A stretch of 64,000 bases of DNA from Parcubacteria group bacterium GW2011_GWB1_42_6 (lineage in GTDB: Bacteria > Patescibacteriota > Minisyncoccia > Portnoybacterales > GWB1-42-6): contig LCEC01000001.1 in the NCBI GenBank assembly GCA_000997475.1, positions 375-64,374 of the forward strand, written 5' to 3'. The notes below the pieces were generated by a model. That model was not told where the DNA came from. It made no database searches and was given only the letters and a program-made list of their open reading frames with translations. Below are positions 21,908 to 62,605 of the stretch, one piece after another. Position 1 is the first letter of the stretch; each line of letters opens with the position of its first letter. The position numbers were made by a program, and so were the translations under genes.

Positions 21908-22039
21908 TTTTCAAATTGCAAATTCTCCTCCTTCGCTCCTTCGGAGCTTCGGAAGGACATGGCAATTTCCAATTAAGGATGAAACTATTTATATAACTCC
22001 CCCAACCCCCTCTTATCTAAGAGGGGGAATCCGCCAAGA

Positions 22040-25818: not shown

Positions 25819-26763
25819 ATGAATTTTCTCGACATCAATCAATCTTACAAAAACGCGAAATTCGTTGTCGCGCCTTTTGGCTTTGAAGCCACCACGAGTT
25901 ATGGCGGAGGAACGAATAAAGGCCCGGCGGCAATAATCAAAGCCAGCGCCCAGGTTGAGCTTTTCGACGAAGAACTCTGGCGGGAAATCTACAAAAAGAC
26001 AGGCATTTTCACTTTGCCCGCAATAAAACCCGCCAAAAATATTCCCGGCGCCAAGAAACAGATTTCAAAAATAATCTCAAAAATTCTTGCGGATAAAAAA
26101 ATCCCGATTGTTTTGGGCGGCGAACATAGCATCACGCCTATGATAGTTGAAACATTTTCGGATTTCCTCCTCCCCTCGTCGAGGGGAGGCCATGGAGGGG
26201 TAATTAATCCTAAAATTACCTCCCCCGAACCCCTCCCTAAAAAGGAGGGAAGGAATTCCGCCGCTTCTTTCTCCATCCTCCAATTTGACGCCCACGCCGA
26301 TTTGCGCGATGGCTACTTGGGGCAAAAATATTCCCACGCGGCCGCCATGCGCCGATGTTTGGATAATGAGGGTGTTAATTTAGTCCAAGTCGGGATCAGG
26401 AACATCAGCAACGAAAATGATGAGTTGGTTTTTTGGGAAGCAAACAAAGATCGCATTAAAACTTTCTGGGCCAAAGATAAAAAAAATTGGAAGCTTTCCG
26501 AAATTATGGGTTCTCTTAGGGAAAATGTTTATTTAACCTTTGATGTTGACGCTTTTGATTCTTCGATTATGCCTTCAACCGGCACGCCCGAACCCGGAGG
26601 ATTGGATTGGTACGAAGTGATGGATATTTTGCGCGAAGTCGCCAAAACCAAAAACATCATCGGCATGGATTTTGTGGAGCTCGCTCCCATTAAAACCCTT
26701 CCCGCGCCGGATTTTTTGGTCGCCAAGATGATTTATAAGACGATAGGGTATATTTTAAAATAA
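25819..26763 (+). CDS. Agmatinase/arginase-family ureohydrolase
   Basis: Metal-binding motifs GGEHSIT, FDAHADL, SFDVDAFD; carries an in-frame palindromic insertion at 26166-26252. Confidence 0.75.
   Translation: MNFLDINQSYKNAKFVVAPFGFEATTSYGGGTNKGPAAIIKASAQVELFDEELWREIYKKTGIFTLPAIKPAKNIPGAKKQISKIISKILADKKIPIVLGGEHSITPMIVETFSDFLLPSSRGGHGGVINPKITSPEPLPKKEGRNSAASFSILQFDAHADLRDGYLGQKYSHAAAMRRCLDNEGVNLVQVGIRNISNENDELVFWEANKDRIKTFWAKDKKNWKLSEIMGSLRENVYLTFDVDAFDSSIMPSTGTPEPGGLDWYEVMDILREVAKTKNIIGMDFVELAPIKTLPAPDFLVAKMIYKTIGYILK
26166..26252. repeat. In-frame composite of three GC-rich hairpins inside the agmatinase gene
   Basis: cctcccctc-gtc-gaggggagg, ggaggggtaatt..aattacctcccc, ccctccc-taaaaa-ggaggg; the region encodes SSRGGHGGVINPKITSPEPLPKKEGRN. 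Confidence 0.6.
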
Positions 26764-28831: not shown

Positions 28832-29251
28832 TTATTCTTCCGGCTGGAAGAACTTATCCCAGAGGAGGTTATCGGAGAAGTGAGTCATGAATTCCGTCAT
28901 GGCCGTTTTGTTTTCGGCGAACGAATCGGGGATAAGGGAGATGACTTCTTCGATTGTCGGCTCTCCCTCAAATTTGATGACCGTATTTTTCTCCTGGCCG
29001 TCGTCTTTGAACATAACTTCCATTGAGACATAACGACCTTTCCAGGTGGAGATGTTGGTGTAGATCCCGAAAGCTTTTTTGCCATCATCCATGAGGATAT
29101 ACCGGAAGTAATTCCTGGAACGATGGCTTCGGCTGTGGCTGGCGAATCCTTCGGGCTTCCTTGCCATCATCCTGTCGATGATGGCCATTTCCAAGCCTTC
29201 CCTTAGCTTTTTCATTGAATGCTCCCTTGGATGAGTTTTATTTAGATGCAA
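28832..29251 (-). CDS. Hypothetical small protein (PEGFA-motif family, paralog of 29353-29808)
   Basis: ORF in a GC-richer island; shares a PEGFA..YF..G segment with the neighbouring gene. Confidence 0.3.
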   Translation of the reverse strand: MHLNKTHPREHSMKKLREGLEMAIIDRMMARKPEGFASHSRSHRSRNYFRYILMDDGKKAFGIYTNISTWKGRYVSMEVMFKDDGQEKNTVIKFEGEPTIEEVISLIPDSFAENKTAMTEFMTHFSDNLLWDKFFQPEE

Positions 29252-30584: not shown

Positions 30585-30680
30585 CTTCGAGCCTGTCATT
30601 CGACCCCGAGGGTCTTAGACCCGAACGGGAGGGCCTCAGAGCCTCGAAGGCCCAACCTCCCTTTAGAAGGGAGGAGAAAA
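30585..30680 (+). promoter_or_regulatory. secA 5' leader made of four consecutive GC-rich hairpins
   Basis: gggtct-t-agaccc, cccgaacggg, gggcct..aggccc, and cctccctt-TAGA-aagggagg overlapping the SD. Confidence 0.5.
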
Positions 30681-30683
30681 ACG

Positions 30684-33368
30684 ATGTCCATATTCACCAA
30701 AATTTTCGGCGGGACGAATGAAAAGTCTGTTGCCAAATATAAAACGGTCATTGAAGAGATTAATAAGCTTGAACCGAAATTCGAGTCTTTTTCGGATGAG
30801 GAATTGAAATTGAAGACCGCCCAATTTAAAGAAAGATTGGGCAAAGGAGAAACTCTGGATGATATTTTGCCCGAAGCCTTCGCGGCTTGCCGCGAGGCGG
30901 CCAAGCGCGCGATCGGCCAACGGCATTTTGACGTTCAGTTGATCGGCGGAATGGTTTTGCACGAAGGAAAAATCGCCGAAATGAAAACCGGCGAAGGAAA
31001 AACTTTGGCGGCGACTTTGGCGGTATATCTCAACGCGCTTTCAGGCAAAGGCGCGCACGTTGTAACGGTGAACGATTATCTTTCCAAACGCGACGCCAAC
31101 TGGATGGGATCAATTTATCATTTTTTGGGTTTGAGCACCGGCTGCATCCAGCACGAAAAATCTTATGTTTACGAACCCAAAAAAATCGATCTCAACGAGG
31201 TAACGGTGGAAATGGAAAATCTCAAACAGGTTTCGCGGCGTGAGGCCTATGCCGCCGATATCACTTACGGCACGAACAACGAATTCGGCTTTGATTATTT
31301 GCGCGACAATATGGTGCCGGATTTCAGCGAGATGGCGCAAAGACCTGTCCTCCGAAGCCTTGGCGAAGGGGGAAAACACAACTTCGCCATTGTGGACGAA
31401 GTTGATAGCATTTTGATCGACGAAGCGCGCACGCCTTTGATTATTTCCGCTCCCGACGAAGATTCGGGCAAACTCTACGAAACTTTCGCGCGGATTGTTC
31501 CCCGCCTCAAAGAAAACGAGGATTTTAACATTGATGAAAAATTGCGCTCGGCCACTCTCACGGAAGAAGGCATTGAAAAAGTGGAAAAAATTTTGGGTTT
31601 GGGGAATATTTACACCGAAGGCGGAATAAAATACGTTCATCACTTGGAGCAAGCTTTGCGGGCGCAGGCGCTTTTTAAAAAAGATCGCCATTATGTCGTC
31701 AAAAACGGCGAGATCATTATCGTTGATGAATTTACCGGCCGCCTTATGCCCGGCAGAAGATATTCGGAAGGCCTTCATCAGGCTTTGGAAGCCAAAGAAA
31801 ACGTTACGGTGCAAAAAGAATCGCGGACTTTGGCCTCAATCACTTTTCAAAACTATTTCAGAATGTATGAAAAACTTTCGGGCATGACCGGAACCGCCAT
31901 GAGTTCGGCCGAGGAATTCGGCAAAGTCTATAATCTTGAAGTGGTGGAAGTTCCCACCCATAAGCCTCTTTCCAGGGGTGATAAATCCGATTTGATTTTT
32001 CGCACCGAGATGGGAAAATTCAAAGCGGTGATCCGTGAAGTGGAAGAACGGTACAAAAAAAATCAACCGGTTTTGATCGGCACGGCCTCGATTGATAAAA
32101 ACGAACTTTTGGACCAACTTTTAACCAAAGCCGGAATCAAGCATGAAGTTTTAAACGCCAAAAATCACGAACGCGAAGCTTTGATTATCGCCAAAGCCGG
32201 GGAGCCGGGCGCGGTGACGGTGGCGACAAATATGGCGGGGCGCGGAGTGGATATAATTTTGGGGGGAAGAATTGAATCTCACAACTCTCCCCAACCCCTT
32301 CTTAACTTAAGAGGGGGAGAGGGGGAGTTATCAAAGGATAGCTCTCAAGAAAAAAGTGAATGGCAAAAAAAACACGACTTGGTTGTTTCTTTGGGGGGAC
32401 TGGCGATCATCGGCACCGAGCGCCATGAAGCGCGCCGGATTGACGACCAGTTGCGCGGGCGCGCCGGCCGCCAGGGCGATCCGGGTTCTTCGCGGTTTTT
32501 CGTTTCGCTTGAGGACGATTTGATGAGGATTTTCGCGGCCGATCGCATCAAGGGAATGATGGAATTTTTAAAGATGCCCGAAGACGAGCCGATTGAAAAC
32601 AAAATGATCTCCAAGGCGATCGAATCGGCGCAGGAAAAAATCGAAGGATTCAATTTTGACACTCGCAAACATGTTTTGGAATATGACGATGTGATGAACA
32701 AACAGCGCGAAACGATTTATCGCAAGCGCCGGGAAATTTTGGAATCAAAAGATCTTAAAGAAAAAACTTTGGAAGCGATTTTGGGGGAAGTCAAAAAAAT
32801 CGCCCAATTCCATGCCGCGGGATACAAAGAAGAATGGAACACGAAAGAGCTCAAAGAATCATTGGGCGCGATTATGCCTCTTCCGGCTGATTTTGACGAA
32901 GCGGTTGGGAAAATTGAAACTTCCGAAAATCTGGTTGGCTTTTTGGAAAAACTCGCCGCCGATATTTACGAGATGAAAGAAAAACAAATCGGTTTTGAGC
33001 AGATGCGAGAAATCGAAAAAGTTCTCTTTTTGCGCACCACCGATATGATGTGGATGGATCATCTGGACGAGATGGAGCATTTGCGCGATTCCGTTCGCTT
33101 GCGCGCCTATGGCCAAAAAGATCCCTTGGTTGAATACAAAAACGAAGGCCACAAACTTTTTCAGGATTTGCTGGCTGCCATTCAGGCGCAATTTACGAGC
33201 ATGATTTACAAAGTGACTCTAACGCCGCCGGAGAATCGCCAATCGCGCGTCGCCAATCGCCCTTCGACAAACTCACCACAGGCAAGCTCGGGAAATAATT
33301 CGGTCGGCAGAAACGATCCGTGCCCGTGCGGGAGCGGGAAAAAGTATAAGAAGTGTTGTGGAAAATAA
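30684..33368 (+). CDS. secA: Preprotein translocase ATPase SecA
   Basis: MSIFTKIFGG.. start, DEAD-like motor motifs, and C-terminal zinc-binding CPCGSGKKYKKCCG; the ORF-track N-terminal extension from 30516 is not credible. Confidence 0.9.
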   Translation: MSIFTKIFGGTNEKSVAKYKTVIEEINKLEPKFESFSDEELKLKTAQFKERLGKGETLDDILPEAFAACREAAKRAIGQRHFDVQLIGGMVLHEGKIAEMKTGEGKTLAATLAVYLNALSGKGAHVVTVNDYLSKRDANWMGSIYHFLGLSTGCIQHEKSYVYEPKKIDLNEVTVEMENLKQVSRREAYAADITYGTNNEFGFDYLRDNMVPDFSEMAQRPVLRSLGEGGKHNFAIVDEVDSILIDEARTPLIISAPDEDSGKLYETFARIVPRLKENEDFNIDEKLRSATLTEEGIEKVEKILGLGNIYTEGGIKYVHHLEQALRAQALFKKDRHYVVKNGEIIIVDEFTGRLMPGRRYSEGLHQALEAKENVTVQKESRTLASITFQNYFRMYEKLSGMTGTAMSSAEEFGKVYNLEVVEVPTHKPLSRGDKSDLIFRTEMGKFKAVIREVEERYKKNQPVLIGTASIDKNELLDQLLTKAGIKHEVLNAKNHEREALIIAKAGEPGAVTVATNMAGRGVDIILGGRIESHNSPQPLLNLRGGEGELSKDSSQEKSEWQKKHDLVVSLGGLAIIGTERHEARRIDDQLRGRAGRQGDPGSSRFFVSLEDDLMRIFAADRIKGMMEFLKMPEDEPIENKMISKAIESAQEKIEGFNFDTRKHVLEYDDVMNKQRETIYRKRREILESKDLKEKTLEAILGEVKKIAQFHAAGYKEEWNTKELKESLGAIMPLPADFDEAVGKIETSENLVGFLEKLAADIYEMKEKQIGFEQMREIEKVLFLRTTDMMWMDHLDEMEHLRDSVRLRAYGQKDPLVEYKNEGHKLFQDLLAAIQAQFTSMIYKVTLTPPENRQSRVANRPSTNSPQASSGNNSVGRNDPCPCGSGKKYKKCCGK
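32284..32328. repeat. In-frame GC-rich palindromic insertion within secA
   Basis: ctccccaacccc ttcttaacttaaga gggggagaggggg encodes SPQPLLNLRGGEGE. Confidence 0.6.
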
Positions 33369-33728: not shown

Positions 33729-33770
33729 TATAAGTGAGTTATTTACGCTATAGCGTAAATAACTCACTTA
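33729..33770. repeat. Perfect 18-bp-stem palindrome
   Basis: taagtgagttatttacgc tatagc gtaaataactcactta. Confidence 0.8.
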
Positions 33771-33849
33771 TGGAAATTTGAAGGGGACATTCAGAAATAA
33801 TTAAAATAATTAAAAAGGACGGAATTTTTCCGTCCTTTTGCGTTTTTAA

Positions 33850-34435
33850 CCAGATAAACCACCAGCGTAAGCTGGTGAGTGCGTTTAAAAGCGTAGCTAT
33901 TGTACAATAAAATCACCTCGGGAAAGGAGGTGATTTTAAACATGAGCAGAAGCTATCTGCTGTATCAACTCGACCACTGCACTTACCATTGCAGTTATCA
34001 TATCGTGTGGACACCACGATTCCGCGGTAAGGTTTTGGCCGACAACTATATTAAAGCAGAATTAAAAAGAATGTTCAAACAGATTGCCAACTGGAAAGGA
34101 CTAAGGATTTATGCTTGGCACATCGGAGATGAGCACATCCATCTGCACATCTGCATTCCTCCCAAATATTCTATTGCCTACATCATTCAAATTCTCAAGG
34201 GAAAAACTTCTGGCTGGATCAAAAAGAAAACCAAGAAGTTTCCCAAAGGAGTCCTCTGGGCCAGGGGATACTTTGTTTCGACCGTTGGCATCACGGAAAT
34301 CGCCGTGAAAAAATATATTGAAAACCAGCAACACCATCAAATTGAACTTTCTCAATTAAAACTTTGTTAGCCGGCTGGCGTCAGCCAGCAAAAAGATACC
34401 CCCAGCGTTTAAGCTGGGGGTAGTTCATTTTGGCC
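33850..34435 (+). mobile_element. IS200/IS605-family insertion sequence (tnpA only) with left-end and right-end hairpins
   Basis: Y1 HUH transposase ORF flanked by similar hairpins: accagc-gtaa-gctggt at 33861 and cccccagc-gtttaa-gctggggg at 34401. Confidence 0.55.
33942..34370 (+). CDS. tnpA: IS200/IS605 family Y1 (HUH) transposase TnpA
   Basis: YHCSYHIVWTPRFR and HIHLHICIPP (HuH) motifs. Confidence 0.8.
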   Translation: MSRSYLLYQLDHCTYHCSYHIVWTPRFRGKVLADNYIKAELKRMFKQIANWKGLRIYAWHIGDEHIHLHICIPPKYSIAYIIQILKGKTSGWIKKKTKKFPKGVLWARGYFVSTVGITEIAVKKYIENQQHHQIELSQLKLC

Positions 34436-43728: not shown

Positions 43729-43868
43729 TAATCGGCATAATTGAATTCTCTTTCTTCTCTGTCATCCCCGCGCAGGCGGGGATCCAGATTAATTCAGAAC
43801 CTGGATTCCCCCCGTAGCTGCGGGGCGGGAATGACAAATATAAAGCCAATGCCGATTAGGTGCGGGGG
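43729..43868. mobile_element. MITE-like element A with 19-bp perfect terminal inverted repeats
   Basis: TIR CCCCCGCACCTAATCGGCA / TGCCGATTAGGTGCGGGGG; internal multi-hairpin core. Confidence 0.6.
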
Positions 43869-46767: not shown

Positions 46768-46883
46768 CACACCTAGTCAGGATATTTGAATTTAATTTGG
46801 ATAATAAACAAGTTTACTCCCAATGGCTTGTTTGTCTTCGAAGGATTCTTTGAATAAAAAACAATCCTGATTAGGCGCGGGGG
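46768..46883. mobile_element. MITE-like element B, copy 1
   Basis: (c)cacctagtcagga ... tcctgattaggcgcggggg imperfect TIRs; interior is the reverse complement of copy 2. Confidence 0.55.
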
Positions 46884-46937: not shown

Positions 46938-48809
46938 ATGACGGCCAAGGAATTACGCGGTAAATATCTTGAATTTTTCAAAGCTCGGGGGCACGCGGTT
47001 ATCCCTTCGGCTTCTTTGGTTCCGCAAAACGATCCCACAGTGCTTTTTACCACCGCCGGAATGCAACCTTTAGTGCCGTATCTTTTGGGCGAAAAGCATC
47101 CCCAAGGAAAGCGGCTTGTCAATGTTCAAAAATGCCTCCGCACCAACGATATTGATGAAGTGGGTGATGCCACTCACGGAACTTTTTTTGAAATGCTTGG
47201 CAATTGGTCTTTGGGCGATTATTTTAAAAAAGAATCGTTGAGTTGGAGCTATGAATTTTTAACTTCGCCTGAATGGTTGGGATTGGATAAAAACCGTTTG
47301 GCTGTTTCGGTTTTTGCAGGGGATGACGACGCGCCATTTGATGAAGAAGCTTTTGAAATTTGGAGATCTTTGGGTATTTCTGAAAAAAGAATCACCCGGC
47401 TTCCCAAAGAAAACAATTGGTGGGGGCCGGCCGGAGAAACCGGGCCATGCGGACCGGATTCGGAAATATTTTATTGGACCGGCGCTCCGGATCAGGTTCC
47501 GGAAAGTTTCAACGATGATAACGATCTTTGGGTGGAAATCTGGAATAACGTTTTTATGCAATATAATAAAAACATAAAAGGCTCCTTTGAACCGCTTGCG
47601 CAAAAAAATGTTGACACGGGTTTGGGGCTGGAAAGGGCGCTGGTTACTCTCAATGGCTACGACGAGATTTATAAGATTGACGTTATCCGGCCGATTATTG
47701 AAAAGATAGAAGAAATTTCAGGGAAGAAATACGATGAAACTATCTCTGAAATCCCCCTTAATCCCCCTTTTACAAAGGGGGGAAATCAGAAGGCTATGAG
47801 AATCGTGGCGGATCATTTGAAAGCGAGCGCTTTTTTAATCGCCGATGGAGTTGAGCCTTCCAATACGGAGCGAGGCTATGTTTTGCGCCGGCTGATTCGG
47901 CGCGCGGTGAGATATGGCCGGCAATTGGGAATTGAAGGAATTTTTTGTTTTAAAATCGCGCGGGTCGCGATTGAAATATACAAAGATATTTATCCGGAAC
48001 TTTCGCGGGAAGAAAATTCAATCGAAGAGCAATTAACGAAAGAAGAAGAAAAATTTGCCAAGACTCTTGAATCCGGATTGAAACAATTTGAAAATGTAAA
48101 AATCAAAATTAAAAATGACAGCGCAAAATCTGGAATTATTTCCGGGGAGATCGCTTTTAATTTGTATCAGACTTACGGTTTTCCCGTCGAGCTGACAAAA
48201 GAATTGGCCAAAGAAGCCGGATTGGAAGTTGACGAGGAAAAATTTAAGGATGAAATGAAGCGCCATCAAGAACTTTCCCGCGCCGGAGCCGAACAAAAAT
48301 TCAAAGGCGGTTTAGCCGATCATTCGGAACAAACCGTCAAATACCACACGGCGGCGCATTTGCTTTTGGCGGCTTTGCGTCAAACTTTGGGCGGAGACGT
48401 AAATCAGCGTGGCGCCAATATAACAAGCGAACGATTGAGATTTGATTTTTCGCATCCGCAAAAAATGACTCCGGAACAAATTAAAGAAGTTGAGGATTTG
48501 GTGAATGAAAAAATCAAAGAAGACTTGCCGGTTGCTTGCGAAGAGATGGCCTTGGATGAAGCGAAAGCAAAGGGAGCGACTGGAATTTTCGATTCAAAAT
48601 ACGGGGAGAGGGTGAAAGTTTATACAATTGGAAGCCCTTCGACAGGTCCTTCGACAGGCTCAGGGCAATGCTCGGGGTCCGCGGCTTTCAGCCGCGAGAT
48701 TTGCGGCGGGCCGCATGTTGAAAGAACGGGAGTTTTGGGAAATTTTAAGATCGTTAAAGAAGAATCGTGTTCGGCCGGAGTGAGAAGAATCAAAGCGGTG
48801 CTGAAATAA
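46938..48809 (+). CDS. alaS: Alanine--tRNA ligase, short form (catalytic, tRNA-recognition and editing domains; no C-Ala domain)
   Basis: N-terminal class II core, editing-domain HTAAHLL motif; 623 aa; contains two in-frame insertions. Confidence 0.85.
   Translation: MTAKELRGKYLEFFKARGHAVIPSASLVPQNDPTVLFTTAGMQPLVPYLLGEKHPQGKRLVNVQKCLRTNDIDEVGDATHGTFFEMLGNWSLGDYFKKESLSWSYEFLTSPEWLGLDKNRLAVSVFAGDDDAPFDEEAFEIWRSLGISEKRITRLPKENNWWGPAGETGPCGPDSEIFYWTGAPDQVPESFNDDNDLWVEIWNNVFMQYNKNIKGSFEPLAQKNVDTGLGLERALVTLNGYDEIYKIDVIRPIIEKIEEISGKKYDETISEIPLNPPFTKGGNQKAMRIVADHLKASAFLIADGVEPSNTERGYVLRRLIRRAVRYGRQLGIEGIFCFKIARVAIEIYKDIYPELSREENSIEEQLTKEEEKFAKTLESGLKQFENVKIKIKNDSAKSGIISGEIAFNLYQTYGFPVELTKELAKEAGLEVDEEKFKDEMKRHQELSRAGAEQKFKGGLADHSEQTVKYHTAAHLLLAALRQTLGGDVNQRGANITSERLRFDFSHPQKMTPEQIKEVEDLVNEKIKEDLPVACEEMALDEAKAKGATGIFDSKYGERVKVYTIGSPSTGPSTGSGQCSGSAAFSREICGGPHVERTGVLGNFKIVKEESCSAGVRRIKAVLK
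47752..47786. repeat. In-frame GC-rich palindromic insertion within alaS
   Basis: tccccctta atccccctttt acaaa ggggggaaat encodes PLNPPFTKGGN. Confidence 0.6.
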
Positions 48810-48856: not shown

Positions 48857-48935
48857 GTCATTCCCGCGCAGGCGGGAATCTAGATTAATTCAGAATTAGA
48901 CTTGGGTCTGGATCCCCGTTTTCACGGGGATGACA
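48857..48935. repeat. TIR-less copy of the MITE-A core (GTCAT..ATGAC multi-hairpin unit)
   Basis: gtcattcccgcgcaggcgggaatctagattaattcagaa.. is about 80% identical to 43761-43837. Confidence 0.55.
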
Positions 48936-48973
48936 TCTATGGTTGGGTTTATTTTAATTTTAAAATTTATTTT

Positions 48974-49417
48974 ATGTCTGACATCAAAAAACCCGGCGTG
49001 GGCTTTGGGGTGATGATTGAAAAGAAAGGTAAAATCCTTTTGGGCCGGCGCCATAGCGATCCCAAGAAAGCTTCCAGCGAACTTCACGGCGAAGGCGCTT
49101 GGACGATGCCCGGAGGCAAATTGCATTTTGGCGAAACTCCCGAGGAAGGGGCTTGCCGGGAAGTTTTGGAAGAAATCGGCGTGAAAATAAATTCAAGAAG
49201 GCTCAAGCTCATAAGCGTTTCCAATGATATGGTGAGCGACGCGCATTTTATCACTTTGGGATTCAGATATCCGAGTTTTAAGGGCAGTCCCAAAGTGATG
49301 GAGCCGGATGAAATCGTTGAATGGCGCTGGTTTAATCCCAAGGCATTGCCCAGCCCTATGTATTTTCCCAGCGAACGGGTGTTCAAGCATTTTAAGAGAG
49401 GCAAAATATACGGATAG
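48974..49417 (+). CDS. NUDIX hydrolase
   Basis: Nudix box GGKLHFGETPEEGACREVLEEIGV. Confidence 0.75.
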   Translation: MSDIKKPGVGFGVMIEKKGKILLGRRHSDPKKASSELHGEGAWTMPGGKLHFGETPEEGACREVLEEIGVKINSRRLKLISVSNDMVSDAHFITLGFRYPSFKGSPKVMEPDEIVEWRWFNPKALPSPMYFPSERVFKHFKRGKIYG

Positions 49418-49530: not shown

Positions 49531-49647
49531 CCCGCACCTAGTCAGGATTGTTTTTTATTCAAAGAATCCTTCAAAGACAAACAAGCCATTGGGAGTAAAC
49601 TTGTTTATTATCCAAATTAAATTCAAATATCCTGACTAGGCGCGGGG
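49531..49647. mobile_element. MITE-like element B, copy 2 (inverted relative to copy 1)
   Basis: cccgcacctagtcagga ... tcctgactaggcgcgggg. Confidence 0.55.
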
Positions 49648-61501: not shown

Positions 61502-62605
61502 ATGACTATTGGCATTAACGCCTCGGCGGCTGTCAAAAAGAATAGAACCGGAGTGGAAGAATACGCTTATCAGCTCATAAAGCATTTGGCGATGATTCCC
61601 GAGTCCCAAAAGCATCGTTTTTTTCTATATTTGCCATCCGCAGTTTTAGCAAAGGAAGGTTTGCCCGACAATGTTTTTGATTTTTCTTTCCCTGAAAATT
61701 TTATAATAAAAAAACTTTGGTGGCCGCTGCCTTTCTTCTGGACGCAAATAAGATTGTCTCTGGAAATGATTTTTTTTGCGCCGGACGTTCTTTTCATCCC
61801 CGTTCATATTTTGCCTTTCATTCATCCAAAAAAATCCATTGTTTGTGTTCACGGCCTTGAATATGAATATCTGCGCGGATTCTATTCTTTTTCCCATCGT
61901 TTGTTTTTGCGTTGGAGCACCAAATTTTCCGCCGCGAAATCTTTCCGGATAATCGCGGTTTCTCAAAATACCAAGAACGATTTGGCAAAAATATATAAGA
62001 CAGATACTGATAAAATAAAAGTGGTAAAACACGGGATTTCCTTTCCCCCTTTAGAAAGGGGGATTAAGGGGGATTTTTTAAGGAAGAAAGAAAAATATAT
62101 TTTATATCTAGGCCGCATCGAAACCAAGAAGAATATCCAAGGAATTATTGAAGCGTATGAAATTCTGAATAACAAATATAGCATTCACCACAAGCTTGTT
62201 TTAGCCGGTTCAAAAGGATACGGCCATAAGAATTTAAAAATACCGAGCGATGTGATTCAGACCGGATTCGTGAGCCAAGAAAAAAAAGAAGTCTTGATGA
62301 ACAACGCCGCAATATTTCTATTTCCCTGTTTTTACGAGGGTTTTGGTTTGCCGATTCTTGAAGCTCAAGCGGCGGGAATTCCCGTCGTGACTTCTTATAA
62401 TTCTTCAATGCCGGAAGTGGCCGGGGAAGGGGCTTTATTTGTTGATCCGCGCAATCCGGCTCAAATCGCCCGGGCCGTTAAAAAAATAATTGACGACAAT
62501 CTCTTGCGTGATAAACTGATACAATCGGGATTTGAGAACATAAAAAAATTTTCTTGGGAAAAATGCGCTCGGGAAACGCTGGATTTTTTAAGCAGCTTGG
62601 AATAG
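61502..62605 (+). CDS. Glycosyltransferase family 4 (GT-B)
   Basis: C-terminal EGFGLPILEAQAAGIPVVT sugar-donor-binding motif. Confidence 0.75.
   Translation: MTIGINASAAVKKNRTGVEEYAYQLIKHLAMIPESQKHRFFLYLPSAVLAKEGLPDNVFDFSFPENFIIKKLWWPLPFFWTQIRLSLEMIFFAPDVLFIPVHILPFIHPKKSIVCVHGLEYEYLRGFYSFSHRLFLRWSTKFSAAKSFRIIAVSQNTKNDLAKIYKTDTDKIKVVKHGISFPPLERGIKGDFLRKKEKYILYLGRIETKKNIQGIIEAYEILNNKYSIHHKLVLAGSKGYGHKNLKIPSDVIQTGFVSQEKKEVLMNNAAIFLFPCFYEGFGLPILEAQAAGIPVVTSYNSSMPEVAGEGALFVDPRNPAQIARAVKKIIDDNLLRDKLIQSGFENIKKFSWEKCARETLDFLSSLE
62041..62075. repeat. In-frame GC-rich palindromic insertion within the GT4 gene
   Basis: ctttccccctttagaaagggggattaagggggat encodes SFPPLERGIKGD. Confidence 0.55.

What the first reader, a model, noticed from the sequence alone, without database searches (positions are those of the whole stretch)
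32284..32328. Family of GC-rich C-run/G-run palindromes inserted in frame into conserved genes (RPE-like); secA copy
In an AT-rich genome, short palindromes recur with the form C4-6(Y)n-T-rich/A-rich centre-(R)nG4-6. Four copies lie inside well-conserved ORFs without breaking the frame: secA (here, encoding SPQPLLNLRGGEGE), alaS (47752-47786, PLNPPFTKGGN), the agmatinase gene (26166-26252, three stacked hairpins) and a GT4 gene (62041-62075, PPLERGIKGD). In every case the C-run is read as Pro codons and the G-run as Gly codons. Only the coding-compatible insertion phase is therefore seen. This is the hallmark of selfish palindromic elements that insert into coding sequence, as described for Rickettsia palindromic elements. 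To my knowledge it has not been described for CPR-type genomes. The same motif type also sits in the secA leader and other intergenic spots.
Basis: seen in the sequence. Interest (0 to 1): 0.8.

Follow-up and report, generated by a model that had tools for sequence, protein, structure and literature searches.

The report
Short palindromic repeats inserted inside genes
A family of ~35-base C-run/G-run hairpin repeats sits in frame inside essential genes of this tiny groundwater bacterium; the same repeats occur in many bacterial phyla, where they bracket a small nuclease gene (DUF559) that may be what spreads them.

Summary
The window (Parcubacteria bacterium GW2011_GWA1_42_7, about 43% GC) has 7 pyrimidine-arm/purine-arm hairpins with stems of at least 8 bp, against 0.4 expected. 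Five lie in frame in secA, alaS, an agmatinase-like gene (a triple hairpin) and a GT4 gene. The alaS and GT4 copies share an exact 20-mer in opposite orientations.

Orthologue comparisons show the segments are lineage-specific, sit in variable loops, and fall at insertion hot spots. The same DNA element (SPQPSLNLRGGE) is in secA here and in alaS of other genomes.

The selfish-repeat reading is therefore supported, but three points need correcting:
- **Pro/Gly reading:** this is trivial, and the phase is fixed by TAA stops in the other frames.
- **Family:** the elements are not RPEs. They are 30-87 nt, not 100-150 nt.
- **Distribution:** the family is not CPR-specific. One 19-mer occurs in more than 20 phyla, mostly between genes.

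The new lead is a nuclease link. In 80 metagenome loci chosen only for a DUF559 (Vsr-like) nuclease gene, these hairpins flank the gene upstream in 63 and downstream in 68, 19 times the local background. The geometry is fixed, and the agmatinase insertion reproduces it without the gene. No Y1 transposase lies near the elements.

I infer a REP/RAYT-like system built on a PD-(D/E)XK nuclease. Mobility itself is not shown.

The parts
32284..32328 (+). secA copy. Anatomy is C-run, AA, C-rich arm, loop, G-rich arm, AG, G-run. It encodes SPQPLLNLRGGEGE inside the variable (VAR) region of SecA nucleotide-binding domain 2.
   Evidence: Sequence; fold -12.2 kcal/mol. B. subtilis SecA has no counterpart for ORF residues 587-622. 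The VAR region is an insertion hot spot in 42 orthologues. The same element in the same frame occurs in alaS of L003 and L004 and in secA of L001.
47751..47786 (+). alaS copy, orientation U(+): ATCCCCC-TTA-ATCCCCCTTT-tac-AAAGGGGGG. It encodes IPLNPPFTKGG.
   Evidence: It is a 12-aa gap against Aquifex AlaRS and is absent from most of 40 Parcubacteria orthologues. Residues 270-280 have pLDDT below 50 and are coil. It is fixed in all population variants at 95% identity or more.
62041..62078 (+). GT4 glycosyltransferase copy, orientation U(-): TCCCCCTTTAGAAAGGGGG-ATTAA-GGGGGAT. It encodes FPPLERGIKGDF in the interdomain linker.
   Evidence: It carries the exact reverse complement of the alaS 20-mer. 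The linker is hypervariable among 31 homologues, some of which carry other repeat-type peptides.
26166..26252 (+). Agmatinase/arginase-family composite: U(-) hairpin plus G-run, then an AT-rich spacer hairpin, then C-run plus U(+) hairpin. It adds about 24-29 aa (FLLPSSRGGHGGVINPKITSPEPLPKKEGRN).
   Evidence: three hairpins, -20.2 kcal/mol, 0 of 200 shuffles as stable. It is absent from orthologues in L001 (64% identity) and L005. It has the same U(-)...U(+) geometry as the units bracketing DUF559 genes. The 41-nt hairpin-to-hairpin gap compares with a median of 46 in 22 such pairs elsewhere.
21997..22030 (+). Intergenic U(+) copy, CTCCCCC-AA-CCCCCTCTT-atct-AAGAGGGGG, between a 594-aa ORF and murB.
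   Evidence: This spacer is 244 nt here against 13 nt in the syntenic locus L001.
30656..30674 (+). Hairpin CCTCCCTT-tag-AAGGGAGG in the secA leader, ending 10 nt before the ATG at 30684. It has no extra run. Its 3' arm is the probable Shine-Dalgarno sequence.
   Evidence: z = -4.5. The GC-rich leader has no counterpart in relatives L001 and L005. Membership in the family is uncertain.
30684..33368 (+). secA, host gene.
   Evidence: Pfam; PDB alignment.
46938..48809 (+). alaS, host gene.
25819..26763 (+). Arginase-family (agmatinase) host gene.
   Evidence: named agmatinase by NCBI.
61502..62605 (+). GT4 glycosyltransferase host gene.

Best explanation
The palindromes are copies of a dispersed, non-autonomous repeat family.

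**The unit.** One unit is about 30-36 nt: an 8-10 bp hairpin whose 5' arm is C-rich pyrimidine and whose 3' arm is G-rich purine, plus one extra C-run 2-5 nt upstream (orientation U+) or one extra G-run downstream (orientation U-).

**Shown.**
- The family is over-represented in the window.
- It occurs in both orientations, and as singles and as inverted doublets.
- It sits at different sites in orthologous genes of related genomes.
- Near-identical sequence is found across many bacterial phyla.

**Why copies survive in genes (shown by frames and loops; selection inferred).** In this 86%-coding genome, copies that land in genes persist only where the protein tolerates an extra loop and only in a stop-free frame. 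That frame turns C-runs into Pro, the T/A centre into Leu/Phe/Asn/Lys, and G-runs into Gly. The tolerant sites seen here are the SecA VAR region, an AlaRS inter-helix loop, an agmatinase loop and the GT4 linker.

**Candidate autonomous partner (association shown, role inferred).** The partner is a roughly 115-aa DUF559 nuclease, a Vsr-like PD-(D/E)XK enzyme. Its gene is bracketed by U(-) about 20 nt upstream and U(+) about 20 nt downstream, much as RAYT genes are bracketed by REPs. The agmatinase insertion is that bracket without the gene.

**Proposed mechanism (inferred, untested).** The nuclease nicks or cuts at or near the hairpins, and copying during repair or transposition spreads cassettes and gene-less derivatives.
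For: **Excess and identity**
- 7 hairpins against 0.4 expected; mirror class at chance.
- Exact 20-mer in alaS(+) and GT4(-).
- The secA element matches elements in alaS of L003 and L004 and in secA of L001, codon for codon.

**Lineage-specific presence and hot spots**
-.
- Inserted AlaRS segments are low-confidence coil.

**Breadth**
- The 19-mer occurs in at least 120 stretches from more than 20 phyla, often at contig ends.
- In that sample there are 247 pyrimidine-first hairpins against 35 purine-first.

**Nuclease link**
- ORF clustering around the elements singled out DUF559.
- In 80 loci chosen by the protein alone, a hairpin lies within 200 nt upstream in 63, downstream in 68, and on both sides in 53.
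- Density is 5.02 per kb at gene ends against 0.27 per kb elsewhere in the same loci.
- The extra run faces the gene in 50 of 62 upstream and 49 of 63 downstream cases. Median distances are 23 and 19 nt.
- Canonical cassettes exist in CPR genomes: L206 next to alaS and L233 next to ileS, whose ileS also carries an in-frame unit.
- The DUF559 profile matches PDB 3HRL (E = 1e-27) and the homing endonuclease I-Bth0305I catalytic domain 3R3P (E = 4.6e-5).
- Many DUF559 relatives sit on very short contigs, and their gene calls run into element-encoded peptides.
- No Y1 transposase lies in 807 kb around the elements.
Against: - No DUF559 gene occurs in the 64-kb window. I could not inspect the rest of the source genome.
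- No precise empty site, target-site duplication or presence/absence polymorphism was found. All population variants at 95% identity or more keep the insertions, and related contig pairs gave no clean unit indel. Mobility is therefore inferred from distribution only.
- The DUF559 loci are the 80 best matches to seeds that themselves came from element-bearing loci, so the association is proven for one subfamily only.
- In Leptolyngbya PCC 7376 the bracket has the opposite polarity.
- The hairpins could be expression or termination signals of the cassette rather than its substrate.
- The apparent co-variation of the extra run with its own stem arm did not survive a control.
Confidence: 0.6

Rival explanations
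1. These are classical REP/REPIN elements mobilised by a Y1 (RAYT or IS200-type) transposase, for example the IS200 TnpA encoded at 33900-34370 just downstream of secA.
For: The elements have REP-like size, are palindromic and form inverted doublets. A Y1_Tnp gene is in the window, and its right-end hairpin has C5/G5 runs.
Against: - The TnpA is an IS200 equivalog (114.9 bits). It scores 25.8 against the RAYT model, whose cut-off is 80.
- Its own hairpins share a CCAGCGT(T)TAAGCTGG core unlike the family.
- No Y1 homologue lies in 807 kb around 120 element loci, whereas 6 DUF559 genes do.
- The elements have no GTAG or CGTC end tag (criterion from PMC3733652).
Confidence: 0.08
2. The DUF559 cassette and the hairpins are linked, but the nuclease does not move the solo repeats. 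The hairpins are the cassette's own promoter, ribosome-binding-site or terminator signals, or its preferred landing site, and the solo copies arise or spread by another route.
For: The fixed positions, -23 nt before the start and +19 nt after the stop, also fit expression signals. The G-run next to the start codon resembles a Shine-Dalgarno sequence. The secA leader hairpin likewise overlaps a ribosome-binding site. The opposite polarity in Leptolyngbya argues against a strict transposon-end role.
Against: Other genes in the same loci are not bracketed (0.27 against 5.02 hairpins per kb). Gene-less U(-)...U(+) pairs with cassette geometry are dispersed, one of them inside the agmatinase gene.
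Confidence: 0.17
3. The hairpins are host-beneficial structures kept by selection, not selfish or mobile DNA. Candidates are mRNA hairpins that pace translation or stabilise transcripts, or Pro/Gly linker peptides.
For: Palindromy is retained in old, shared insertions such as the secA VAR region in the window and in L001. The insertions are fixed in the population. The secA leader hairpin could regulate translation.
Against: The same 20-mer occurs in unrelated genes in opposite orientation, so the peptides differ. In other phyla the copies are mostly intergenic. The inserted segments are predicted disordered and are absent from most orthologues. A related family at another AlaRS site is read in two different frames in different orthologues.
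Confidence: 0.08
4. The palindromes arise locally and repeatedly, by template switching or slippage at C/G runs, and resemble each other only by convergence.
For: - The alaS second insertion shows a 21-nt slippage polymorphism.
- The window and L001 secA copies differ by what looks like fusion or duplication of hairpins.
- The secA VLRSLGEGGK insert pairs with flanking conserved codons.
Against: Exact identity of 19-20 nt, including the non-run spacer TTAAT, across genes, genomes and phyla is far beyond convergence. By my rough estimate for uniform base composition, about 4 chance matches to the 19-mer are expected in 596 Gb, against at least 120 found.
Confidence: 0.05

Closest known systems
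Rickettsia palindromic elements (RPE; Ogata et al. 2000, recalled from memory; mentioned in PMC1779305 and PMC10969869)
   Same: Palindromic repeats inserted in frame into conserved protein genes. They are translated as extra surface segments, have no stop codons, and have copies in non-coding DNA as well.
   Different: RPEs are about 100-150 bp, restricted to Rickettsia, and have no known associated enzyme. The units here are 30-36 nt (87 nt for the composite), have a three-run C/G anatomy, occur across many phyla and are linked to DUF559 genes. Sequence homology to RPEs was not tested.
REP / REPIN elements with RAYT transposases (PMC3116915, PMC3337134, PMC3733652)
   Same: Palindromes of 20-40 nt in high copy, occurring as singles and as inverted doublets. 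A single small gene is bracketed by inverted copies. Occasional intragenic copies are already documented.
   Different: The bracketed gene is a PD-(D/E)XK DUF559 nuclease, not a Y1 HUH transposase. There is no GTAG or CGTC tag. RAYT-REPIN systems are described as mostly vertically inherited within lineages (abstracts), whereas this sequence is shared across phyla. In this CPR window most copies are intragenic.
MITEs derived from insertion sequences by internal deletion (review PMC10969869)
   Same: The agmatinase composite and 22 similar pairs look like the two ends of the DUF559 cassette with the gene deleted.
   Different: No DDE transposase is involved, and no target-site duplication could be identified. 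The ends are hairpins rather than simple terminal inverted repeats.
Homing endonuclease I-Bth0305I (EDxHD / Vsr-like fold; PDB 3R3P 'mobile intron protein')
   Same: The DUF559 profile matches its catalytic domain (E = 4.6e-5). This shows the fold is used by selfish, DNA-cutting mobile genes.
   Different: I-Bth0305I resides in a phage group I intron and has a long asymmetric target (from memory). The DUF559 genes here are free-standing and bracketed by short hairpins.
Very small dispersed repeats of cyanobacteria (Elhai et al. 2008) and GC clusters of yeast mitochondrial DNA (both recalled from memory, not read here)
   Same: Palindromic elements of tens of nucleotides appear as precise insertions in otherwise conserved sequence, including coding regions and the loops of other repeats. 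Nested insertions in loops are seen here in L025 against L064, and in L065 and L099.
   Different: Any sequence relationship is unknown. No nuclease partner was, to my knowledge, assigned to those elements.

Membership tests
Rickettsia palindromic elements (RPE) | Length about 100-150 bp with a long imperfect palindrome | tested here: not met
   Units are 30-45 nt and the largest composite is 87 nt.
Rickettsia palindromic elements (RPE) | In-frame insertion in conserved ORFs, absent from orthologues | tested here: met
Rickettsia palindromic elements (RPE) | Sequence similarity to RPE consensus families | not tested
   No RPE sequences were compared. The hosts are unrelated (Parcubacteria against Rickettsia).
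REP/REPIN-RAYT | Short (20-40 nt) imperfect palindromes, dispersed, many copies | tested here: met
   7 in 64 kb against 0.4 expected; 247 in 807 kb of other genomes.
REP/REPIN-RAYT | Inverted doublets (REPINs) | tested here: met
   35 U+/U- pairs and 22 U-/U+ pairs; the agmatinase composite; the L005 secA doublet.
REP/REPIN-RAYT | GTAG or CGTC terminal tag (PMC3733652) | tested here: not met
   Units begin ATCCCCC or CTCCCC and end GGGGGA(T); no tag is present.
REP/REPIN-RAYT | Cognate Y1 (RAYT) transposase gene flanked by the repeats | tested here: not met
   The window's Y1 gene is an IS200 equivalog and scores 25.8 against the RAYT model cut-off of 80. No Y1 homologue lies near 120 element loci. 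The flanked gene is DUF559.
MITE (deletion derivative of an autonomous element) | Ends match the ends of an autonomous element | tested here: met
   The U(-)...U(+) geometry of gene-less pairs equals the DUF559 bracket.
MITE (deletion derivative of an autonomous element) | Target-site duplication | tested here: inconclusive
   No sufficiently close empty site was available.
DUF559 / Vsr-like PD-(D/E)XK nuclease (the partner gene, not in the window) | Pfam PF04480 match above cut-off with conserved acidic and His residues | tested here: met
   132 bits against a cut-off of 20.6. D51, E62, D64 and H68 are invariant in A4. PDB 3HRL E = 1e-27.
DUF559 / Vsr-like PD-(D/E)XK nuclease (the partner gene, not in the window) | Nuclease activity on the repeat | not testable with these tools
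   Needs biochemistry.

The most novel reading that the evidence does not exclude
A pan-bacterial family of ~35-nt three-run C/G hairpins may be the non-autonomous partner of a free-standing Vsr-like DUF559 nuclease. That would be a second, mechanistically different REP/RAYT-type system, built on a PD-(D/E)XK nuclease instead of a Y1 transposase. It would be shared across phyla, and in CPR bacteria it would routinely remodel essential proteins (SecA, AlaRS, IleRS, agmatinase) by in-frame loop insertions.
Probability: 0.35. Interest if true: 0.85.

Novelty: new variant of a known kind. Interest (0 to 1): 0.68.

Why it matters
- **A function for an orphan family.** DUF559 is a large, unassigned protein family; only 25 papers in the searched library mention it at all. 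If the nuclease link holds, it gains a role as the driver of a very widespread class of short repeats. Those repeats fragment metagenome assemblies and generate spurious 'PPxxxKGG'-type peptides in gene calls.
- **Protein evolution in CPR bacteria.** Selfish DNA would be a regular source of the lineage-specific insertions that make CPR protein sequences look unusual. Length variation of SecA (843-1005 aa) and AlaRS among close relatives would largely be repeat traffic at a few tolerant loops.
- **Annotation and phylogenomics.** Such segments should be masked before alignment.
- **Transfer between phyla.** The near-identical sequence across phyla, and on 25 viral contigs, raises the question of how such a small element moves between lineages.

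Tried and rejected
- **34397-34422 palindrome.** Rejected as a family member. It pairs with 33860-33877 as the IS200 end hairpins.
- **RAYT/IS200 as mobiliser.** No Y1 gene lies near the elements, and the RAYT model score is below cut-off.
- **Empty-site alleles.** Clusters at 90% identity for all four host proteins show the C/G insertions fixed. Only the unrelated alaS PSTG repeat varies.
- **Unit presence/absence between related contigs.** BLAST of all fetched loci gave 10 related pairs and no clean case.
- **Unit-specific co-variation of the extra run with its stem arm.** The own-arm excess (56% against 32%) vanishes when CCCCCC cores are excluded (38 against 32 of 207), so the claim was dropped.
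- **Known RNA families and tRNAs.** None in the window.
- **Within-element folding z-scores.** Weak for single units (-0.5 to -2.2), because shuffles keep the C and G runs. The genome-level count is the valid test.
- **Viral contigs.** The 19-mer is present in 25, but no DUF559 gene lies nearby.
- **Defence-system models (PADLOC).** Only weak partial matches for DUF559.
- **Literature.** Searches by sequence string, by 'DUF559', and by CPR plus palindrome terms found no description of this family.
- **Scripts.** Searches were empty scripts.
Full report
**1. What is in the window**

The window comes from Parcubacteria group bacterium GW2011_GWA1_42_7, a Portnoybacteria-like CPR organism. This follows from exact protein matches and SecA relatives. 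GC content is about 0.39-0.47 per 2 kb, and about 86% of the window is coding.

The hosts are SecA, AlaRS, an arginase-family protein that NCBI names agmatinase, and a GT4 glycosyltransferase. The true secA start is 30684: ORF residue 57 aligns with residue 5 of B. subtilis SecA.

**2. More than chance**

I counted hairpins whose 5' arm is all pyrimidine with at least 4 C.
- With stem at least 8 and loop 3-9, the window has 7. The mean over 200 dinucleotide-preserving shuffles is 0.405 (sd 0.62, max 2).
- The mirror class (purine arm first) serves as an internal control. It is at chance, 1 against 0.43.

The alaS copy on the + strand and the GT4 copy on the - strand share the exact 20-mer ATCCCCCTTAATCCCCCTTT, with 0.06 matches expected even allowing 3 mismatches. 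The secA copy resembles the intergenic copy at 21997-22030.

The palindrome at 34397-34422 is not a member. Together with 33860-33877 it forms the end hairpins (core CCAGCGT(T)TAAGCTGG) of an IS200 element. That element's TnpA is an IS200 equivalog and falls below the RAYT cut-off.

**3. Anatomy**

Each unit is a hairpin (arm B, loop, arm B') plus one extra run:
- a C-run 2-5 nt upstream, called U(+), as in alaS and 21997;
- a G-run downstream, called U(-), as in GT4;
- or both, as in secA.

The agmatinase segment is U(-), then an 18-nt AT-rich spacer that forms its own hairpin, then U(+). This gives the three stacked hairpins.

**4. The segments are lineage-specific insertions at tolerant sites**

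- **Agmatinase.** The syntenic orthologue in L001 (64% identity) and the one in L005 read ...YK(N/K)AG(Y/F)(Q/N)DFSILQFDA. The window has about 24-29 extra residues at this point.
- **AlaRS.** The segment is a 12-aa gap against Aquifex AlaRS and is absent from most of 40 Parcubacteria orthologues. Eight orthologues, counting the window's own protein, carry the same kind of peptide at or next to this site. Examples are PSQPSLNLRGGEE, SPQPPLNLKGGEILNPPNPPLHKGG and NPPQPSFKKEG. An AlphaFold model built on that alignment gives pLDDT below 50 and coil for residues 270-280. The same holds for 569-581, a second insertion.
- **SecA.** The copy lies in the segment after GRGVDIILGG, which B. subtilis SecA lacks. 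Among 42 orthologues at 60-76% identity this segment ranges from 0 to about 80 residues and carries at least three unrelated repeat-peptide families. The short forms read GGRIxDxxxKxxWQ. From memory, E. coli SecA has a variable 'VAR' subdomain here.
- **GT4.** The copy replaces part of a hypervariable interdomain linker rather than clearly adding length.

**5. A DNA element, not a protein motif**

Codon-level comparison shows one element, AAC TCC CCC CAR CCC YCT CTT AAT TTA AGA GGG GGA GAA. It is in secA here and in L001, and in alaS in L003 and L004. It keeps the same frame and stays palindromic.

The genome that carries it in alaS (contig of P0201) has a SecA without it (P0007, on a contig of the same length, 44229 nt, so probably the same contig).

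The alaS and GT4 copies are the same DNA in opposite orientation and so encode different peptides.

**6. Phase**

A run of five C gives at least one Pro in any frame, and five G at least one Gly, so that part of the finding is uninformative.

The secA-type centre CTTAATTTAAGA has TAA in two of its three frames. The alaS-type U(+) has two open frames, and both kinds of peptide (xPPFxKGG and xPLxxRGx) are seen in ORF-internal copies elsewhere. The 'single phase' is what selection against stop codons leaves.

**7. The family is not CPR-specific**

My rough expectation for uniform composition is about 4.

Hits span Nitrospirota, Desulfobacterota, Chloroflexota, Cyanobacteria, Elusimicrobiota, Riflebacteria, Schekmanbacteria, Bacteroidota, Gammaproteobacteria, Patescibacteria and others. 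Many are within 150 nt of a contig end, as expected for multi-copy repeats.

Similarity does not extend beyond the roughly 35-nt unit. In these 807 kb there are 247 pyrimidine-first hairpins against 35 purine-first, and only 15 of 247 lie at least 60 codons deep inside an ORF. In the window, 5 of 7 lie inside genes, close to the 86.5% expected if coding sequence were not avoided (small numbers). Further CPR examples include an in-frame TPLAKGG unit in ileS of L233.

Intragenic REPs have been reported before in other bacteria (PMC3733652).

**8. The nuclease link**

Clustering all ORFs from the 120 loci gave three generic families and one small family that sat right next to the element in 6 loci. 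It is DUF559 (PF04480, 132 bits). An AlaRS homologue, P0177, also carries a DUF559 gene fused upstream through a unit.

As an independent test I fetched 80 metagenome loci chosen only by similarity to the protein.
- A pyrimidine-first hairpin lies within 200 nt upstream in 63, downstream in 68, and on both sides in 53.
- Density is 5.02 per kb at the gene ends against 0.27 per kb elsewhere in the same loci.
- The geometry is regular. The nearest upstream unit carries its G-run towards the gene in 50 of 62 cases, and the nearest downstream unit its C-run towards the gene in 49 of 63. Median gaps are 23 and 19 nt.

Canonical cassettes occur in Patescibacteria (L206, L233). A cassette of reversed polarity occurs in the complete isolate genome of Leptolyngbya sp. 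PCC 7376.

The DUF559 profile matches PDB 3HRL (E = 1e-27) and the catalytic domain of the homing endonuclease I-Bth0305I (3R3P, E = 4.6e-5). Relatives are often on sub-3-kb contigs, and their gene calls run into unit-encoded peptides.

No Y1 transposase homologue occurs in the 807 kb. Gene-less U(-)...U(+) pairs with a median 46-nt hairpin-to-hairpin gap occur 22 times elsewhere. The agmatinase insertion (41 nt) is one of these.

**9. Interpretation and limits**

The best reading is a REP/RAYT-like or IS/MITE-like system whose partner is a PD-(D/E)XK nuclease. The window's copies are non-autonomous members that survive in genes where loops tolerate them.

What is not shown:
- movement itself: I found no empty site, no target duplication and no polymorphism;
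- nuclease activity on the unit;
- the presence of DUF559 in this genome outside the window (none lies inside it).

The association is demonstrated for one DUF559 subfamily. An apparent co-variation of the extra run with its stem failed a control.

**10. Novelty**

Full-text searches by sequence string, by 'DUF559' and by CPR plus palindrome terms found no description of this family or of the nuclease association. The library is incomplete, and Elhai et al. 2008 on cyanobacterial small dispersed repeats could not be read.

In-frame palindromic insertions (RPE, intragenic REPs) are a known kind. The anatomy, the cross-phylum spread, the DUF559 link and the frequency inside CPR essential genes make this a new variant.

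Noticed in passing
window 33860-34422: A complete-looking IS200 element lies about 0.5 kb downstream of secA. TnpA is at 33900-34370 (IS200 equivalog, 114.9 bits). The left and right subterminal hairpins are CACCAGCGTAAGCTGGTG and CCCCCAGCGTTTAAGCTGGGGG. An ENA contig of the same organism (L002) carries it too.
   Followed up: partly
window 33730-33771: A perfect 42-nt palindrome (19-bp stem ATAAGTGAGTTATTTACGC, loop TATA) lies in the spacer between the DUF3850 gene and the IS200 element. It is unrelated in sequence to the C/G family.
   Followed up: no
window 31347-31376 (secA) and 48642-48671 (alaS): Two further in-frame insertions come from other repeat families.
- **secA, VLRSLGEGGK.** Shared with orthologue P0077. 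Its 3' part pairs with the conserved codons that follow.
- **alaS, TGPSTGSGQC.** One population variant (P0249) lacks 7 aa by slippage of CCTTCGACAGG. Shifted by one base, the window DNA reads LRQAQGN. Orthologue P0122 has LRQAQGKL at the same site, so the same DNA type is used in two frames.
   Followed up: partly
SecA alignment A1, after GRGVDIILGG (window about 32250-32400): The VAR region of Portnoybacteria SecA carries at least two other recurrent repeat-peptide families in different orthologues. SENAENSQREFSAPAN...VPARDLxVSE also occurs at a second site in P0077. The other family is GLLRRPADRTPRNDE. SecA length ranges from 843 to 1005 aa at about 60-70% identity.
   Followed up: partly
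window 46806-46833 and 49579-49606: A 28-nt hairpin (AAACAAG-TTTACTCCCAATGG-CTTGTTT) and its exact reverse complement flank a 2.8-kb block containing alaS and the ORF at 48902-49417.
   Followed up: no
window 43764-43783, 43808-43825, 48860-48879, 48912-48931: Another small palindrome type: ATCCCCGCGCAGGCGGGGAT, ATTCCCGCGCAGGCGGGAAT and ATCCCCGTTTTCACGGGGAT. Similar GGATTCCCGCCTTCGCGGGAATGAC motifs appear next to C/G units in other phyla (for example L097).
   Followed up: no
window 30595-30683: The secA leader is GC-rich and made of several hairpins (GACCCCGAGGGTC, GGGCCTCAGAGCCTCGAAGGCCC and the ribosome-binding-site hairpin). The leaders of relatives L001 and L005 are AT-rich and unrelated.
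   Followed up: partly
L025 against L064; L065; L099; L080 (other phyla): Loops of the C/G hairpins contain nested insertions of other small hairpins. For example, L025 has CCAGTCCTGGATGGTTTTGTCCAGG inside a loop that is intact in the related contig L064.
   Followed up: no
L207-L231 (IMG/VR viral contigs): The 19-mer ATCCCCCTTAATCCCCCTT occurs on 25 viral contigs. In that 212 kb there are 45 pyrimidine-first hairpins against 13 purine-first, and no DUF559 gene.
   Followed up: partly
window 29163-29185 against L002: The ENA contig of the same organism (99.66% identical over 8.4 kb) has a 15-nt insertion, AATTGTTATTCATGA, inside the hairpin GCCATCATC-CTGTC-GATGATGGC.
   Followed up: no
L232 (Leptolyngbya sp. 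PCC 7376, CP003946.1 811934-815305): In this isolate genome the DUF559 gene is bracketed with reversed polarity (extra runs distal to the gene). Each unit has a GCCTTCGGC hairpin nested between the extra run and the stem.
   Followed up: partly
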